From IMG/VR virus record IMGVR_UViG_3300023487_000051: a DNA stretch of 4,572 nt; one strand, given 5' to 3'. The notes beneath the pieces were generated by a model that saw nothing but the letters and a program-made list of their open reading frames with translations, did no database searches and had not been told where the DNA came from. A program made the translations under genes and the position numbers. Below, one piece after another: positions 1-4,572 of this stretch. How positions within the stretch are numbered: position 1 is the stretch's first letter; each line of letters opens with the position of its first letter. This DNA comes from a virus (lineage: Duplodnaviria > Heunggongvirae > Uroviricota > Caudoviricetes).

Positions 1-725
1 GAAATCCCGGACATTACAATGCCATCCGAAACAACAATAATGTCACCCGTTTCTTCCGGCATTCGCTCACTACAGCTTATCCAACCATCCGGAGTTACCG
101 GAGAATTGCCAGACAGCTCGTTCAACTTGTAAGTTTGGCTTACAGGTTCGGCTTCCAGTTCTGCAATGCGCTTCTCTGCGGCTTCCAGCTTCTCGCGCAT
201 ATCATCAACGTACTCGACCAGAGATCCGCCAGCAGGAATTTCGCACTCCTCGACCAGTTGGAAGTAGATATCAGCTGCGGACCGTGTGTTGCTATGCCTA
301 GCGTCGCCCATCTCACCTTCACGAAGAGCATCGCGTTCTGCGGTAAGATTGGCTATTTTGCTGTCTTTGCCTTCCAGCTCAACACGCAGTTTCCCTACCG
401 TTAGCGCAATATCCTCGTTCTCCTGATCGCGGAGTTTGATGTATTGCTGGTTTCTTTCCAGCTCATCCAGCAGCGCCAAGACGGTAGCGGGATTGGCTGC
501 GGCGATGAATTCAGCATTGGCCTGCTGTTCCATTTGGAAATCTTCATCGAAACCGCTTTCTGGATGCGCTCCTTCAATTCTGCAAATGGGAAGATATCCA
601 ACAACTTCACGATGAATTAGTGCATCACCAGCATCAAATCTCTCCTCTCCATATTCGAGCGACCACACACCACACGTTGCTTTTTCTGCCGCTTCACGCA
701 GTGCCTGATAGTCAATCTTGTTCAT
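1..725 (-). CDS. Ead/Ea22-like coiled-coil protein, 5' portion only (ATG at 725..723; 241 codons open to the window edge, 3' end beyond position 1)
   Basis: Hand translation of the minus strand from 725 gives an uninterrupted frame to position 3: MNKIDYQALREAAEKATCGVWSLEYGEERFDAGDALIHREVVGYLPICRIEGAHPESGFDEDFQMEQQANAEFIAAANPATVLALLDELERNQQYIKLRDQENEDIALTVGKLRVELEGKDSKIANLTAERDALREGEMGD...MREKLEAAEKRIAELEAEPVSQTYKLNELSGNSPVTPDGW... Missing from the ORF track because it has no in-window stop. Start lies 1 nt after the upstream TGA (TGAcATG). Family call rests on remembered motifs (ALREAAEKAT, ANPATVLALLDELE) and position in a lambdoid early-left region; not verified by search. Confidence 0.7.
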   Translation of the reverse strand, partial: MNKIDYQALREAAEKATCGVWSLEYGEERFDAGDALIHREVVGYLPICRIEGAHPESGFDEDFQMEQQANAEFIAAANPATVLALLDELERNQQYIKLRDQENEDIALTVGKLRVELEGKDSKIANLTAERDALREGEMGDARHSNTRSAADIYFQLVEECEIPAGGSLVEYVDDMREKLEAAEKRIAELEAEPVSQTYKLNELSGNSPVTPDGWISCSERMPEETGDIIVVSDGIVMSGI

Positions 726-726
726 G

Positions 727-1026
727 TCACATCACCCTGAAGCCGTTGCATTTACGTAAGAAATCGCAGATATAGCCCTTCATTTTTTCATGCCAATCTC
801 GATCATTCCCATTGCACCACCCATCAGGTGGAGTCCAGTTTTCTATCAGAGCAGCCATTTTCTTTGCTTTCGCCGGAGTAGCTGTTGCGGTATCGCAGTA
901 ATGACGAGTGTCAACAAACTTATCCATGCCATCGATATCAAGTACGCAAAACCATGTGTGATTCGGAATTCCTACAGGTGGTATTTGTTGCCCACGTCGG
1001 CGTTTATCAATGAGATATACACTCAC
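727..1026 (-). CDS. hypothetical phage protein, 99 aa, Cys/His/Trp-rich
   Basis: Track ORF 727..1026. Start is GTG at 1026..1024 overlapping the upstream stop (GTGA). A full-consensus Shine-Dalgarno AAGGAGGT (plus-strand 1032..1039, reverse complement) sits 6 nt upstream. Five Cys and three His. No family recognised. Confidence 0.75.
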   Translation of the reverse strand: MSVYLIDKRRRGQQIPPVGIPNHTWFCVLDIDGMDKFVDTRHYCDTATATPAKAKKMAALIENWTPPDGWCNGNDRDWHEKMKGYICDFLRKCNGFRVM

Positions 1027-1472
1027 TGGTTACCTCCTTTGCGAAGCTCTGCGGCGAACTCGTTAAGTGATATGTAGCAATCTCCAAATGTTAACGAACC
1101 GCTCGACTGCATATGCTCCATAGCCATCTCCACGCCCTGCGCCCGTACTTCAGCCAGGAAAGCATCGGTGGCTGGGGTTTCAGTAACATCATCTTCCCAT
1201 TCGCTAAACTCCTCACGACAAAAGTCATTAAATTCCTTCTCAGATTGCTTAAGCGAGGTATTTTCAGCAGCCATCTTCGCGCATTTAGCCTCAAGGTTAT
1301 CAATCGTGATTCCAGCAGAACGACACTCCCGCAACGCCGTTTCTAGTTTTGATTCAAGTTCACCGAACTTACGCACCAGATATTCAGCGTTTGTTTCGTT
1401 AACCTTTAAATCTCGGGGGATGCATTTACCTTTCAGAAAACCATCCATCTCAATTAGTGACATTTGTTTCAT
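1023..1472 (-). CDS. hypothetical coiled-coil phage protein, 149 aa (track ORF extends to a GTG at 1490; ATG at 1472 preferred)
   Basis: Track ORF 1023..1490. The ATG at 1472..1470 forms an ATGA overlap with the stop of the upstream 54-aa ORF and is preceded by a purine-rich stretch (GGAGTGGGAAGAA); the GTG at 1490 has no SD. Protein [16 protein letters not shown]...[52 protein letters not shown]...; central heptad-like region. Function unknown. Confidence 0.75.
1032..1039 (-). promoter_or_regulatory. Shine-Dalgarno AAGGAGGT for the 99-aa gene, embedded in the 3' end of the upstream CDS
   Basis: Plus strand acctcctt is the reverse complement of AAGGAGGT; 6 nt upstream of the GTG at 1026. Confidence 0.7.
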
Positions 1473-1633
1473 TTCTTCCCACTCCGCCACATTGCATTCA
1501 GATATTTGTTGTCATTAACAGAGCCGAAACTATTTCTCTTAAGCAATTCCTCTCTCGATGGCATTGGCTTTACGCGTTGGCGAATAATCATTTCTGCCGG
1601 AAGAATGCCGGGATTGTATGCAAGCCCTCTCAT
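1469..1633 (-). CDS. small hypothetical protein, 54 aa (not in ORF track)
   Basis: Hand translation: [57 protein letters not shown] at 1633..1631 overlaps the TGA of the upstream 96-aa gene (ATGA), and its own TGA at 1471..1469 overlaps the ATG of the downstream gene (ATGA). SD-like GGAGAG lies 8 nt upstream. It fills an otherwise unexplained gap of about 140 nt in a packed operon. Confidence 0.6.
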
Positions 1634-1920
1634 GATTTACTCTCCACGAACTGGTCAATAGCCATGCTAAGTGACACACCTAAAGTCTCGATATGTTGCT
1701 GAATATCCTGTAGCGTCTGCGCCTGAGATAACAGGATTTCACGGTTGCATAACTCTTTAACCAGATGCTCAAACTTGCTGTAATAACCGATACGGCTTAG
1801 TGTTTCTTTCCCTGCATTCTCGCCTTCTTTGATAATTCCTCTTTCGCTAAGAATCAGATCGTGTTTTGTTCCGGTAATAACGTATTTTCCGAGGTCGATG
1901 TTTAGCTTCATTGTTTTCAT
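1630..1920 (-). CDS. hypothetical phage protein, 96 aa (track ORF starts further upstream at 2073; ATG at 1920 preferred)
   Basis: Track ORF 1630..2073 overlaps the preceding gene by about 140 nt. The internal ATG at 1920..1918 is preceded by GAGGAA with 6-nt spacing and lies 10 nt after the upstream stop. Protein [96 protein letters not shown]. No family recognised. Confidence 0.75.
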
Positions 1921-1930
1921 TGTTAATTCC

Positions 1931-2227
1931 TCAGTCATTACTGATAGCGCCATAGCGTGAGCGGTAATTACGCAGGCGCGGGTCGATATATTCAGGGAAG
2001 TGGGTATATGTGGCTTTGCGGAATGGTCGGATTGATGTCTGGTAAATTCGCTCGCGTTCTTCTTTCTCTGCAAGCCATATACAGTGGCGAAATTCCTTTT
2101 CCTCTTTCGTTTCCTGCGGTAGAGACATTATCCGGTCGTAGTTTTTTCTGAATTTATCCAGCACCTCCGATACGGAATTGCCGGAACATCGGCGTGGGTC
2201 ATCCTCACCATACAGAGGCGCTGGCAT
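1931..2227 (-). CDS. hypothetical phage protein, 98 aa; first gene after the erf-ssb module (positional candidate for an Abc-like anti-RecBCD function, unverified)
   Basis: Track ORF 1931..2227, ATG start with SD AAGGA about 8 nt upstream, 23 nt after the ssb stop. Protein MPAPLYGEDDPRRCSGNSVSEVLDKFRKNYDRIMSLPQETKEEKEFRHCIWLAEKEERERIYQTSIRPFRKATYTHFPEYIDPRLRNYRSRYGAISND. The functional suggestion is inference from gene order (in P22, abc1/abc2 follow erf) and size only. Confidence 0.75.
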   Translation of the reverse strand: MPAPLYGEDDPRRCSGNSVSEVLDKFRKNYDRIMSLPQETKEEKEFRHCIWLAEKEERERIYQTSIRPFRKATYTHFPEYIDPRLRNYRSRYGAISND

Positions 2228-2250: not shown

Positions 2251-2634
2251 TCAGAATGGGATGGAATCGTCGTATACAGGAGTGTTCTGCTGGTTACTAC
2301 TTTGCTGCTGCGGGCCATTTCCTGAAGCTGTAAATCCAATCTTTGCATTCAGTAATTCAAGAGTAATTGATTGACCATTTTGCCCCTGATAAACATCAAC
2401 CCTGATGTTTTCTCCGGTAATTTCCACAATGCCACCTTCAACAAGAACACTACGGTAGTAATCCGCTTGCGCTCCTGGCTTGGCAAATACAACGGCGCTG
2501 TAGTTTGTCCATTCTTTCTTTTTTGTCTGGCGATCGTAATACTGAACGCCAGCACGGATGTTGAATCCGATATTTTCCCCGGCCTGAAACTCTCTTGCGG
2601 GCTTGTTTAGTCTTACAGTAATCGAATGTGCCAT
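2251..2634 (-). CDS. ssb: phage single-stranded DNA-binding protein, short form, 127 aa, C-terminal tail DDSIPF
   Basis: Track ORF 2251..2724 begins at a non-ATG codon inside erf. The ATG at 2634..2632 overlaps the erf TAA (TAATG), giving MAHSITVRLNKPAREFQAGENIGFNIRAGVQYYDRQTKKKEWTNYSAVVFAKPGAQADYYRSVLVEGGIVEITGENIRVDVYQGQNGQSITLELLNAKIGFTASGNGPQQQSSNQQNTPVYDDSIPF. The terminal acidic DD-x-IPF and the Gly/Gln-rich linker before it are the SSB signature (bacterial SSB ends DDDIPF). It sits directly downstream of erf, as in phage recombination modules. Confidence 0.75.
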   Translation of the reverse strand: MAHSITVRLNKPAREFQAGENIGFNIRAGVQYYDRQTKKKEWTNYSAVVFAKPGAQADYYRSVLVEGGIVEITGENIRVDVYQGQNGQSITLELLNAKIGFTASGNGPQQQSSNQQNTPVYDDSIPF

Positions 2635-3249: not shown

Positions 3250-3420
3250 TCAGAATGGACACGGCCCAAGGAAATAACGCTGATTTAATACTTCGACTCG
3301 GGACAAGTTAAGGCATACCCGCATTCCTTCGCGGTCGCCATTATGTCGATACCAGAGAGCTTTCTGCGTGTACATGCGCCTCTGTAACTTGCTCTCCTTC
3401 ACTGTGGTTGCAAGTGACAT
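3250..3420 (-). CDS. small basic hypothetical protein, 56 aa, immediately upstream of erf (Arf-position ORF; not in ORF track)
   Basis: Hand translation from ATG 3420..3418: MSLATTVKESKLQRRMYTQKALWYRHNGDREGMRVCLNLSRVEVLNQRYFLGPCPF. Strong SD GAAGGAGAT (plus-strand 3425..3433, reverse complement) 4 nt upstream of the ATG. Its stop lies 10 nt before the erf ATG, which itself has only a weak SD, so coupling is plausible. It overlaps the 52-aa ORF 3341..3499 by 80 nt in another frame, so only moderate confidence. Confidence 0.45.
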   Translation of the reverse strand: MSLATTVKESKLQRRMYTQKALWYRHNGDREGMRVCLNLSRVEVLNQRYFLGPCPF

Positions 3421-3499
3421 GAATATCTCCTTCGTTACCGATTAATTCTTTCATCTGACGAATGAATTCTTCGTCTGACCAGTTATCTGTAAAACTCAT
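3341..3499 (-). CDS. small acidic hypothetical protein, 52 aa, start coupled to the kil-like ORF (not in ORF track)
   Basis: Hand translation from ATG 3499..3497: MSFTDNWSDEEFIRQMKELIGNEGDIHVTCNHSEGEQVTEAHVHAESSLVST. The ATG overlaps the TGA of the Kil-like ORF (ATGA). It overlaps the 56-aa ORF in a different frame; which of the two (or both) is translated cannot be decided from sequence alone. Confidence 0.45.
   Translation of the reverse strand: MSFTDNWSDEEFIRQMKELIGNEGDIHVTCNHSEGEQVTEAHVHAESSLVST
3425..3433 (-). promoter_or_regulatory. Shine-Dalgarno GAAGGAGAT for the 56-aa Arf-position ORF, embedded in the 52-aa ORF
   Basis: Plus strand atctccttc is the reverse complement of GAAGGAGAT; 4 nt upstream of the ATG at 3420. 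Confidence 0.5.
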
Positions 3500-3648
3500 T
3501 TCCTGCGATACCATGGAAGGTTGATAGCTAATTTCATCTCTTTATTTGCTTCAAGCCACATTTTGGAATCACCAATAAATCTGGCTATTACTGCTTTGTT
3601 TTGTGCAGCACGAAGTATCTGGTGATTGATGGCTATTTCATTGCGCAT
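3496..3648 (-). CDS. kil: Kil-like small protein, 50 aa (putative host cell-division inhibitor), overlapping the 3' end of cIII (not in ORF track)
   Basis: Hand translation from ATG 3648..3646: MRNEIAINHQILRAAQNKAVIARFIGDSKMWLEANKEMKLAINLPWYRRK. SD GAGGT 7 nt upstream. The start overlaps the cIII 3' end by 16 nt in another frame, the same arrangement lambda has for cIII and kil. The segment IARFIGDSKMWLEA resembles what I recall of lambda Kil (unverified). Stop overlaps the next ATG. Confidence 0.6.
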   Translation of the reverse strand: MRNEIAINHQILRAAQNKAVIARFIGDSKMWLEANKEMKLAINLPWYRRK

Positions 3649-3788: not shown

Positions 3789-4572
3789 TTAGTAGGTTAT
3801 TTTTGTTGCGAATACTTCGCCTTTTACGATGGCTGTTATGATATTTTTAGCAACATCTTCTGATGCACCAACCTTGATAAGGTCAGCAAGTATTTTGTTA
3901 TTTACTTCTTTCCGGTGAGCTTTATCCTTTGCTCTACGCTCTTCTTCGTCCTTGATTCTTTTTTCTTCTGCTATTCTGGCTTGCTCTTTTGCTTCAGCCT
4001 CGCGACGGATTCGTTCAGCCTCCTCCTGTGCTTTTCTGCGTTCTGCTTCAATTGCTGCCTGCTTTTCTCTTTCAGCTCGTTCTGCTGCCTCTTTTGCTTC
4101 GCGCTGTGCTCGTTGCTCGGCTTCAATGCGTTCACGCTCTGCACGTTCCGCTGCGGCCTTAGCTTCTGCTTCTCGCCTTGCTGCTGCTTCAATTTCGGCT
4201 TTTGCCTTTGCTTCGGCTTCTGCTCTGGCTTTCTCTTCAGCTTCTCTTTTTAAGCGTTCTTCATGCTCTCGCTTTTCCTGCTCCGCTTTGAGTCTTGCCT
4301 CTTCTCTTTGGCGGTCAAATTCGCGATCCATCAAAATCGCTATTTCATGGTCAGACTCAATTTGCTTTGCGAGAGCTTCAGCTGCTGCCTTAGCTTCTTC
4401 TTCGGCTTTAATCCGCGCCTGTTCCTCTTCATAATCAGTAAGAGGCTGGCGTGCCTTGGCTTTCAGTTCATCAAGGCGATCGCGCACTGTCTTGCGGTTG
4501 GCATCAATTAGCTTTGGAATTTCCTTCAGTTCAGCAACAAGGTCTTTGCCAAGACCATCGAGATATGTTTTC
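3789..4572 (-). CDS. Glu/Arg/Lys/Ala-rich coiled-coil protein (TolA-like low complexity), 3' portion; N-terminus probably beyond the window end
   Basis: Track ORF 3789..4487 begins at a GTG with no SD. Hand translation shows the frame stays open upstream to the window edge (…KTYLDGLGKDLVAELKEIPKLIDANRKTV-RDRLDELKAKARQPLTDYEEEQARIKAEEEAKAAAEALAKQ…REAEEKARAEAEAKAKAEIEAAARREAEAKAAAERAERERIEAEQRAQREAKEAAERAEREKQAAIEAERRKAQEEAERIRREAEAKEQARIAEEKRIKDEEERRAKDKAHRKEVNNKILADLIKVGASEDVAKNIITAIVKGEVFATKITY). Same strand as the operon, 24 nt upstream of cIII. Other frames here are also open, as expected for low-complexity sequence, but only this one looks protein-like. Confidence 0.65.
   Translation of the reverse strand, partial: KTYLDGLGKDLVAELKEIPKLIDANRKTVRDRLDELKAKARQPLTDYEEEQARIKAEEEAKAAAEALAKQIESDHEIAILMDREFDRQREEARLKAEQEKREHEERLKREAEEKARAEAEAKAKAEIEAAARREAEAKAAAERAERERIEAEQRAQREAKEAAERAEREKQAAIEAERRKAQEEAERIRREAEAKEQARIAEEKRIKDEEERRAKDKAHRKEVNNKILADLIKVGASEDVAKNIITAIVKGEVFATKITY
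3910..4430. repeat. low-complexity, internally repetitive coding segment (degenerate GCN/GAR/CGN triplet repeats encoding the AE[KR]A-type motifs); approximate bounds
   Basis: Visible in sequence as recurring gcttc/tgcttc/ctgc units on the plus strand. It explains the multiple long ORFs in several frames on both strands in the track (3915..4253, 3952..4434, 3971..4192). Confidence 0.55.

What the first reader, a model, noticed from the sequence alone, without database searches (positions are those of the whole stretch)
1023..2227. Four uncharacterised, translationally coupled small genes directly downstream of the erf-ssb recombination module: anti-RecBCD / anti-defence candidates
Erf-type phages lack lambda Gam and still need to protect linear DNA ends from RecBCD; P22 does this with Abc1/Abc2, encoded immediately promoter-distal to erf. 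Here that position is occupied by a 98-aa protein (1931..2227) followed by 96-, 54- and 149-aa proteins, all of unknown family. The early-left accessory region of lambdoid phages is an established hotspot for host-takeover and anti-defence genes. The 98-aa protein is the best positional candidate for an Abc2-like RecC binder, but I cannot confirm sequence similarity from memory.
Basis: partly seen in the sequence, partly recalled or inferred. Interest (0 to 1): 0.6.

Follow-up and report, generated by a model that had tools for sequence, protein, structure and literature searches.

The report
Abc2 anti-RecBCD gene plus accessory genes
The four small genes are real, but the first is simply the well-known phage anti-RecBCD protein Abc2 and the last belongs to the recently described Oad2/EaE anti-defence family, so this is an ordinary, already catalogued stretch of an E. 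coli lambdoid prophage.

Summary
All four ORFs exist on the minus strand at the stated coordinates and sizes (98, 96, 54 and 149 aa). They are tightly packed: a 10-nt gap, then two ATGA overlaps.

They are not "of unknown family":
- **98 aa:** this is Abc2 itself. It matches Pfam PF11043 at 3e-61 and is 92% identical to P22 Abc2. It matches PDB 8B1T/8B1U, and Pro68 and 63 of the first 66 residues are conserved.
- **149 aa:** a member of the P22 EaE / HK446 Oad2 family. It is 56% identical to Oad2, the direct inhibitor of the P2 OLD abortive-infection nuclease. Its hypervariable C-terminal cassette differs from Oad2's, so its target is untested.
- **96 aa:** DUF5405 (the P2 Orf83 / Sf6 gp24 / ES18 gp45 family). 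It is an optional cassette, present in 21 of 74 Abc2 loci, with a phage-only β4-α2 fold.
- **54 aa:** DUF2737 (P22 Orf56). It follows abc2 in 74 of 74 loci, but it also follows RecT/MuGam-like modules that lack Abc2.

The gene order is identical to phage HK446 gp30–gp27.

Nothing here is new. The functions of DUF5405 and DUF2737 remain unknown.

The parts
1931..2227 (-). abc2: anti-RecBCD protein 2 (98 aa)
   Evidence: PF11043 at E 3.1e-61, 204 bits, residues 1-98 against profile positions 1-97 of 97. phrog_656 'abc2 anti-RecBCD' at 4e-56. 92% identical to P22 Abc2. Matches PDB 8b1t_A at 8e-56. Only three substitutions in residues 1-66 (A8E, L32R, A65S), and Pro68 is kept.
1630..1920 (-). DUF5405 protein (96 aa); P2 Orf83 / Sf6 gp24 / ES18 gp45 / HK446 gp29 family; function unknown
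1469..1633 (-). DUF2737 protein (54 aa, pI 10.7); P22 Orf56 / HK97 gp38 / HK620 HkaI family; function unknown
   Evidence: PF10930 at 4e-30. 74% identical to P22 Orf56. Family limited to Escherichia, Salmonella and Shigella, 173 clusters. Follows abc2 in 74 of 74 IMG/VR loci. Also found without Abc2.
1023..1472 (-). EaE/Oad2-family protein (149 aa, acidic, predicted all-helical coiled coil) with its own C-terminal cassette
   Evidence: phrog_614 at 4e-60. 56% identical to HK446 gp27 (Oad2), E 5e-57, with residues 1-70 nearly identical. 71% identical to HK75 gp28. 64% identical over 58 aa to P22 EaE. At least 21 C-terminal cassette types in the family. AF2 model is all helix at low confidence, pLDDT 67.7.
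2251..2634 (-). context: SSB-like protein (127 aa; HK97 gp40 type, 'SSB-1b'; HK446 Gp31) with a C-terminal DDSIPF tail
   Evidence: phrog_44 at 7.8e-27 but no Pfam hit. Its position corresponds to HK97 Gp40. Classified as SSB-1b in PMC12315714.
2634..3239 (-). context: erf, single-strand annealing protein (201 aa)
   Evidence: PF04404 at 5e-44 and phrog_155 at 8e-57.
3341..3499 (-). context: homologue of HK446/HK75 Gp33, the reported trigger of P2 OLD
   Evidence: 86% identical to HK446 gp33. Role taken from bioRxiv 10.64898/2026.07.10.737580.
727..1026 (-). context: DUF7739 protein (99 aa; HK75 gp27 / 'Sf6 gene 22-like' by position), GTGA-coupled to the 149-aa gene
   Evidence: PF24881 at 8.6e-19 and phrog_1239 at 5e-54. 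Junction.

Best explanation
The interval is the promoter-distal end of an HK75/HK97-type recombination (Rec) module and the start of the 'ea' accessory region. It lies in the early-left (pL) operon of an E. coli lambdoid/P22-like prophage, and its gene order is the same as phage HK446 gp30-gp29-gp28-gp27.

**Gene 1 (98 aa): Abc2.** By homology to the solved P22 protein, its N-terminal helical part (residues ~3-66) binds the Chi-recognition ('inactivated helicase') domains of RecC. Pro68 engages the host prolyl isomerase PpiB. RecBCD keeps unwinding DNA but no longer switches properly at Chi, so the enzyme is diverted to the phage's own Erf/SSB recombination instead of destroying or hijacking phage ends. 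Shown here: identity of the protein. Inferred: the activity.

**Gene 4 (149 aa): a member of the EaE/Oad2 family.**
- Its layout is a conserved N-terminal ~70 residues, a coiled coil, a conserved [15 protein letters not shown] motif, a hypervariable C-terminal cassette and a conserved LRKGGNQ end.
- The HK446 allele (Oad2) binds the P2 OLD ABC-ATPase/TOPRIM tRNase directly and prevents its activation. OLD is triggered by this locus's own Gp33.
- I infer that the window's allele is a defence-nuclease binder of the same kind, and that its specificity is set by its own C-terminal cassette. Whether it blocks P2 OLD is unknown.

**Genes 2 and 3 (DUF5405 and DUF2737).** These are small stand-alone accessory proteins of the same operon.
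- DUF5405 is an optional cassette dropped precisely between the abc2 Shine-Dalgarno spacer and the DUF2737 start codon.
- DUF2737 is the constant first gene after the Rec module.
- Their most likely role is as small binders of host or defence proteins in this hotspot. That is inference from context only.
For: **Abc2**
- Sequence identity.
- Mechanism: eLife 2022, PMC9836394, and Genome Res 2025, PMC12315714. The latter defines the SAP+SSB+anti-RecBCD 'HK75-type' module and names HK97 gp40 as SSB-1b.

**Operon structure**
- Gene junctions and absence of internal promoter or terminator signals.

**Synteny**
- HK446, HK75, HK97, P22, ES18 and E. coli NCTC8623.

**Oad2 link**
- The preprint text.
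- The gene was identified by reproducing the paper's figure of 54% identity between HK446 gp27 and HK75 gp28.
- Window protein against Oad2: 56% identity, E 5e-57.
- Cassette hypervariability.
- HK97 and HK75 share one cassette, and both are reported as OLD-sensitive.

**DUF5405 as a cassette**
- Present in 21 of 74 loci. The sequence upstream of the ATG is nearly identical whether DUF5405 or DUF2737 follows.

**DUF2737**
- Present in 74 of 74 loci.
Against: - No experiment was done on this allele of any of the four proteins.
- The window's 149-aa protein is closer to HK75 gp28 (71%), which does not protect against OLD, than to Oad2 (56%). Its cassette matches neither, so anti-OLD activity may be absent.
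- The Oad2 result comes from a single 2026 preprint.
- For DUF5405 and DUF2737 there is no positive functional evidence: no PADLOC hit, no informative fold match and no domain fusions.
- The 149-aa AF2 model is of low confidence.
Confidence: 0.8

Rival explanations
1. The three genes after abc2 are modulators of phage development (the lysis-lysogeny decision, host physiology), like the lambda exo-xis region genes ea22, orf60a, orf61, orf63 and ea8.5, rather than anti-defence factors.
For: - They occupy the same place between the Rec module and xis/int as the lambda exo-xis region.
- The 149-aa protein has the Ea22-like layout of a short N-terminus, a coiled coil and a variable C-terminal domain.
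- It shares phrog_368 with the neighbouring Ead/Ea22 protein, and some homologues are Ead_Ea22 fusions (P0096).
- Ea22 is reported to be pro-lysogenic (PMC7093339, PMC10834534).
Against: - The closest experimentally studied relative of the 149-aa protein is Oad2, which binds and inhibits OLD directly.
- The 149-aa protein shows no sequence match to the solved lambda Ea22 C-terminal domain.
- Nothing links DUF5405 or DUF2737 to the lambda exo-xis ORF families.
Confidence: 0.25
2. The 96-aa DUF5405 protein is a replication initiation accessory protein, as its PHROG/RefSeq label says.
For: - phrog_154 is labelled 'replication initiation protein'.
- In P2-like phages the homologue (Orf83) lies immediately upstream of the replication nickase gene A.
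Against: - I found no support for the label beyond the family's position in P2: the gene is annotated 'function unknown' in ES18 and as hypothetical or DUF5405 in many other records.
- In lambdoid phages the gene sits in the pL operon, away from the replication genes.
- It is optional, present in 21 of 74 otherwise similar loci.
Confidence: 0.08
3. DUF5405 or DUF2737 replaces the missing P22 Abc1 as the second anti-RecBCD component working with Abc2.
For: - None of the window proteins compared with P22 Abc1 resembles it, and none of the nine proteins scanned hit an Abc1 family.
- Both genes are immediately downstream of abc2, and DUF2737 accompanies Abc2 in 74 of 74 loci.
Against: - Profile comparison of DUF5405 with Abc1 gives 0.1% probability.
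- P22 has Abc1 and the DUF2737 homologue Orf56 together.
- DUF2737 and DUF5405 also follow RecT + MuGam-like modules with no Abc2.
- DUF5405 occurs in P2-like, T4-like and Providencia phages in unrelated contexts.
- According to PMC12315714, the Rec module ends at abc2.
Confidence: 0.05

Closest known systems
P22 Abc2 (anti-RecBCD protein 2; Pfam PF11043; PDB 8B1T/8B1U)
   Same: 92% identity over the full length, nearly the same size (98 aa against 97), Pro68 conserved and 63 of 66 residues identical in the RecC-binding part. It lies downstream of erf in the pL operon.
   Different: Here it follows an SSB-like gene rather than abc1. There are a few C-terminal substitutions and a one-residue insertion (THFPEY against TKFIE). 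The host is E. coli rather than Salmonella, although the solved complex used E. coli RecBCD.
HK446 gp27 = Oad2 (OLD anti-defence 2), bioRxiv 10.64898/2026.07.10.737580
   Same: Same position: the third gene after abc2, ATGA-coupled to DUF2737. 56% identity overall, with a nearly identical N-terminal 70 residues, a shared [15 protein letters not shown] motif and the LRKGGNQ end.
   Different: It lacks Oad2's ~20-residue central insertion and carries a different C-terminal cassette. The HK75/HK97 allele, with yet another cassette, does not protect against P2 OLD, so function cannot be transferred.
P22 EaE, Orf56 and the P22 early-left gene order erf-abc1-abc2-orf56-eaE
   Same: Same order abc2 - DUF2737 (Orf56, 74% identical) - EaE-like (64% identical over the central 58 aa).
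   Different: No abc1. An SSB-like gene lies between erf and abc2. There is an extra DUF5405 gene between abc2 and DUF2737. The N- and C-terminal parts of the EaE-like protein are unrelated to P22 EaE.
P2 Orf83 / Sf6 gp24 / ES18 gp45 (DUF5405, PF17399, phrog_154)
   Same: 34%, (not measured) and 68% identity respectively. The Sf6 gp24 relationship rests on annotation notes and a homologue named 'Gene 24 protein'. All are stand-alone proteins of about 90 aa encoded in early operons.
   Different: The neighbours differ: the TraR-like orf82 and replication gene A in P2, and abc2 and DUF2737 here. No member has a known function.
Lambda Gam / MuGam-like (Sipho_Gp157) / GamL
   Same: They fill the same functional slot, neutralising RecBCD next to the phage recombinase. 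DUF5405 and DUF2737 also follow MuGam-like modules.
   Different: They are unrelated in sequence and mechanism. [quoted passage not shown]

Membership tests
Abc2 (anti-RecBCD protein 2, PF11043) | Full-length match to the family profile above the curated cut-off | tested here: met
   204 bits against a cut-off of 25, residues 1-98 on profile positions 1-97 of 97. phrog_656 at 4e-56.
Abc2 (anti-RecBCD protein 2, PF11043) | Close similarity to the experimentally characterised P22 protein, including the RecC-binding N-terminal helices (residues 3-66) | tested here: met
   92% identity. Only A8E, L32R and A65S differ within residues 1-66. Matches PDB 8b1t_A at 8e-56.
Abc2 (anti-RecBCD protein 2, PF11043) | Pro68, the residue that engages host PpiB | tested here: met
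   Residue 68 is Pro, within the conserved IRPFRKATY stretch. Its role is taken from PMC9836394.
Abc2 (anti-RecBCD protein 2, PF11043) | Encoded in a Rec module next to a single-strand annealing protein in the early-left operon | tested here: met
   Order erf - SSB-like - abc2, preceded by cIII and kil. Same as HK75, HK97 and HK446.
Abc2 (anti-RecBCD protein 2, PF11043) | Binds RecC and alters the Chi response of RecBCD | not testable with these tools
   Needs co-purification or biochemical assays. No multimer prediction tool was available.
Oad2 / EaE family (HK446 gp27) | Full-length sequence homology to HK446 gp27 | tested here: met
   56% identity, E 5e-57, end to end. phrog_614 at 4e-60.
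Oad2 / EaE family (HK446 gp27) | Same genomic position (after DUF2737, downstream of abc2, in a locus that also encodes Gp33) | tested here: met
Oad2 / EaE family (HK446 gp27) | Same C-terminal (presumed specificity) cassette as the functional Oad2 allele | tested here: not met
   The window's cassette ([30 protein letters not shown]) differs from both the HK446 and the HK75/HK97 cassettes.
Oad2 / EaE family (HK446 gp27) | Direct binding to and inhibition of P2 OLD | not testable with these tools
   Shown only for the HK446 allele, and the HK75 allele fails.
DUF5405 (PF17399) | Profile match above the cut-off and homology to P2 Orf83 / ES18 gp45 | tested here: met
   25.4 bits against 21.6, a marginal pass. 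phrog_154 at 1.4e-32. tblastn 68% to ES18 gp45 and 34% to P2 Orf83. BFVD DUF5405 models give TM 0.74-0.85.
DUF2737 (PF10930) | Profile match above the cut-off and homology to P22 Orf56 | tested here: met
   103.8 bits against 25. 74% identity to P22 Orf56.
P22 Abc1 | Sequence or profile similarity of any of the four proteins (or of the SSB-like protein) to Abc1 | tested here: not met
   BLASTP E 2.9 for the 96-aa protein and no alignment for the SSB-like protein. hhalign probability 0.1% for the DUF5405 profile. The 54-aa and 149-aa proteins were not compared with Abc1 directly.

The most novel reading that the evidence does not exclude
The window's EaE/Oad2-family allele, with its own C-terminal cassette, may inhibit a different defence nuclease: another OLD-class enzyme or another ABC-ATPase/TOPRIM system such as Gabija or PARIS. 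Separately or in addition, the small DUF5405 or DUF2737 proteins may be unrecognised counter-defence or RecBCD-modulating factors of this recombination-linked hotspot.
Probability: 0.25. Interest if true: 0.5.

Novelty: already known. Interest (0 to 1): 0.15.

Why it matters
As it stands, this matters little. The locus is a textbook lambdoid Rec module end, and near-identical copies exist in hundreds of phages and about 30% of complete E. coli genomes (1646 of 5426).

The residual value is practical:
- The EaE/Oad2 family shows at least 21 interchangeable C-terminal cassettes between conserved flanks. This gives a ready-made natural library for mapping how phage inhibitors track variants of OLD-type abortive-infection nucleases.
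- DUF5405 has 958 cluster representatives and a phage-only fold. DUF2737 is the constant first gene after Abc2. Both are abundant, short, easily testable accessory proteins that have no assigned function.

Tried and rejected
**Abc1 replacement.** I tested whether the 96-aa or the SSB-like protein is a diverged Abc1. BLASTP and hhalign were negative.

**Obligate Abc2-DUF2737 partnership.** This was rejected. DUF2737 also follows RecT + MuGam-like + 104-aa modules. The 104-aa protein in the abc2 slot there shows no similarity to Abc2.

**Fold-based function for DUF5405.**
- The AF2 model is good (pLDDT 88.6).
- BFVD returned only uncharacterised phage proteins.

**Domain fusions for DUF5405.** The longer homologues carry no informative extra domains.

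**Structure of the 149-aa protein.** The model is of low confidence (pLDDT 67.7, pTM 0.28, all helix), so I did not run a fold search on it.

**Other searches that found nothing.**
- NCBIfam gave no hits, and PADLOC gave only weak hits with E-values of 0.03-0.05, which I regard as chance.
- PDB sequence searches for the 96-, 54- and 149-aa proteins were negative.
- There are no Rfam families, notable repeats or Chi sites in the window.
- A literature search for DUF5405 or DUF2737 returned no papers.
- The Silas et al. accessory-gene screen used Abc2 as a control and reports Abc1 as an Abi trigger; my term search of it (Abc2, RecBCD, P22, Ea22, HK97, lambdoid) turned up no passage about the other three families.
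Full report
**Observation.** All genes in the window are on the minus strand.
- The junctions are a 10-nt spacer carrying GAGGA, then two ATGA overlaps. The 149-aa gene is in turn GTGA-coupled to a 99-aa gene.
- No promoter-like or terminator-like site lies on the coding strand within the interval. This fits a single polycistronic early-left transcript.
- Upstream lie cIII, kil, two small overlapping ORFs, erf (PF04404, 5e-44) and a 127-aa SSB-like gene. Downstream lie a DUF7739 gene and an Ead/Ea22+DUF551 gene.

**Where it comes from.**
- The window is 95-98% identical in mosaic blocks to E. coli and Shigella lambdoid or P22-like phages: HK633, CUS-3, Sf101, HK106, HK97, HK446, Sf6 and Stx phages.
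- The four-gene block is found in 1646 of 5426 complete E. coli genomes, 23 of them at 80% coverage or more.

**Gene 1 is Abc2.**
- The 98-aa protein matches Pfam PF11043 'Bacteriophage P22, anti-RecBCD protein 2' end to end at 3e-61 (204 bits, cut-off 25) and phrog_656 'abc2 anti-RecBCD'.
- It is 92% identical to P22 Abc2.
- It hits the Abc2 chain of the RecBCD-Abc2 cryo-EM entries 8B1T/8B1U at 8e-56.
- Within residues 1-66, which covers the part modelled on RecC (residues 3-66), only A8E, L32R and A65S differ. Pro68, which sits in the PpiB active site, is kept (structure paper PMC9836394).
[quoted passage not shown] It is thought to alter the Chi response and RecA loading in favour of Erf.
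[quoted passage not shown] 2025 (the 'HK75 type', 27 phages). That paper calls the HK97 gp40-type SSB 'SSB-1b' (PMC12315714).

**Gene 4 belongs to the EaE/Oad2 family.**
- The 149-aa protein hits phrog_614 (4e-60) and is partly similar to P22 EaE (64% over 58 aa).
- A July 2026 preprint (bioRxiv 10.64898/2026.07.10.737580) makes three relevant points:
  - The HK75/HK446 'Rec locus' is Gp33-Erf-Gp31-Abc2.
  - Gp33 alone triggers the P2 OLD abortive tRNase.
  - HK446 gp27, named Oad2 and 'related to P22 EaE', binds OLD directly and inhibits it, whereas the HK75 homologue (54% identical) does not protect.
- The HK446 annotation shows gp33 - erf - gp31 - abc2 (gp30) - gp29 (DUF5405) - gp28 (DUF2737) - gp27. 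This is exactly the order in the window.
- I confirmed which gene is Oad2 by reproducing the 54% figure between HK446 gp27 and HK75 gp28.
- The window protein is 56% identical to Oad2 (E 5e-57; residues 1-70 nearly identical) and 71% identical to HK75 gp28.
- Alignments reveal the family layout:
  - an invariant N-terminal ~37 residues;
  - a coiled coil of variable length;
  - an invariant [15 protein letters not shown] motif;
  - a hypervariable stretch of about 25-65 residues;
  - a conserved (F)AxQLRKGGNQ end.
- Among 123 family members I counted at least 21 different cassettes at under 60% identity.
- HK97, HK75 and HK633 share one cassette, and the preprint reports HK97 and HK75 as OLD-sensitive. 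HK446 Oad2 and the window each have a different one.
- Membership of the family is therefore secure, but activity against P2 OLD cannot be inferred.
- The AF2 model is all-helical but of low confidence (pLDDT 67.7, pTM 0.28).

**Gene 2 is a DUF5405 protein.**
- It passes the Pfam cut-off marginally (25.4 against 21.6 bits) and matches phrog_154 strongly (1.4e-32).
- tblastn shows 100% identity in HK140, PhiR12 and 720R6, 68% to ES18 gp45 and about 34% to P2 Orf83. Homologues also occur in Klebsiella, Salmonella and Erwinia phages and in a T4-like Morganella phage.
- The PHROG label 'replication initiation protein' has no support that I could find beyond Orf83's position next to P2 gene A.
- The AF2 model is confident (pLDDT 88.6): a four-stranded sheet followed by two helices.
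- Foldseek against BFVD finds the same fold only in uncharacterised phage proteins, including Bacillus, Lactobacillus and Cellulophaga phages.
- A profile search finds 958 cluster representatives, nearly all stand-alone proteins of 85-100 aa. The few longer ones have no informative fusions.
- In 74 IMG/VR loci with 98% or more identical Abc2 and enough downstream sequence, DUF5405 is present in only 21. The sequence between the abc2 stop and the next ATG is nearly identical whether DUF5405 or DUF2737 follows, so it behaves as an optional cassette.
- It also occurs after GamL-RecT-MuGam-like modules in Klebsiella and in a YqaJ/SSB prophage in Providencia.

**Gene 3 is a DUF2737 protein.**
- It matches PF10930 at 4e-30, is 74% identical to P22 Orf56, and is basic (pI 10.7).
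- The family is narrow, limited to Escherichia, Salmonella and Shigella with 173 clusters.
- It follows abc2 in 74 of 74 loci and in P22, ES18, HK97, HK75 and HK446.
- It also follows RecT + MuGam-like + 104-aa modules that lack Abc2. It therefore marks the boundary after the Rec module rather than being an Abc2 partner.

**Abc1.** The window proteins compared with P22 Abc1 (the 96-aa and SSB-like proteins) do not resemble it. P22 carries Abc1 together with Orf56, so neither DUF protein is an obvious Abc1 substitute.

**Verdict.**
- It is supported by homology for the 149-aa protein, which belongs to the Oad2 family with untested specificity.
- It is unsupported for the other two proteins.
- The claim that the proteins are of unknown family was wrong. 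Nothing here departs from what is already catalogued, so interest is low.
- The open points are the function of DUF5405 and DUF2737 and the target range of the EaE/Oad2 cassettes.

Noticed in passing
window 3341-3514 (-), probable start ATG at 3499: This small acidic ORF is 86% identical to HK446 Gp33. A 2026 preprint reports that Gp33 alone is sufficient to trigger the P2 OLD abortive tRNase and proposes it as a new RecBCD manipulator. It sits where P22 has arf. The window therefore encodes both an OLD trigger and an Oad2-family protein.
   Followed up: partly
window 3250-3499 (-); compare L100 (HK97) 2522-2773: The Gp33-like ORF and the 56-aa ORF at 3420..3250 overlap by 80 nt in different frames in the window, HK446 and HK75. 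In HK97, two extra bases fuse them into one 83-aa ORF. This could be a frameshift-dependent fusion product or a lineage-specific split. It remains unexplained.
   Followed up: partly
window 2251-2634 (-): The 127-aa 'ssb' has no Pfam SSB hit and matches only PHROG 44. It ends in DDSIPF, which resembles the E. coli SSB C-terminal tail (from my own knowledge). It is the HK97 gp40 / HK446 Gp31 type, called SSB-1b in PMC12315714, where ssDNA binding is predicted from structure only. It occupies the slot that abc1 has in P22.
   Followed up: partly
L086 3392-3706 (E. coli prophage); also L085 3023-3310: In RecT + MuGam-like prophages, the slot where Abc2 would be holds a 95-104-aa protein with no Pfam hit. 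It matches phrog_11492 and phrog_323 ('transcriptional regulator, D5-like') and shows no similarity to Abc2. DUF5405 and DUF2737 follow directly after it.
   Followed up: no
window 3-1026 (-): The 99-aa DUF7739 gene (HK75 gp27 type, annotated as similar to Sf6 gene 22; assigned by position) is GTGA-coupled to the Oad2-like gene. It is followed, after 1 nt, by an Ead/Ea22 protein with the beginning of a DUF551 domain at its C-terminal end (the ORF runs off the window). phrog_368 spans both the Ead N-terminal region and the C-terminal half of the 149-aa protein, which shows module shuffling between these neighbouring genes.
   Followed up: no
window 3789-4571 (-): This highly charged, Ala/Glu/Lys/Arg-rich protein (at least 260 aa, running off the window) has no Pfam hit. 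It is like Sf6 gp33 and is annotated 'TolA' in some records. It matches phrog_21365 at 8e-119.
   Followed up: no
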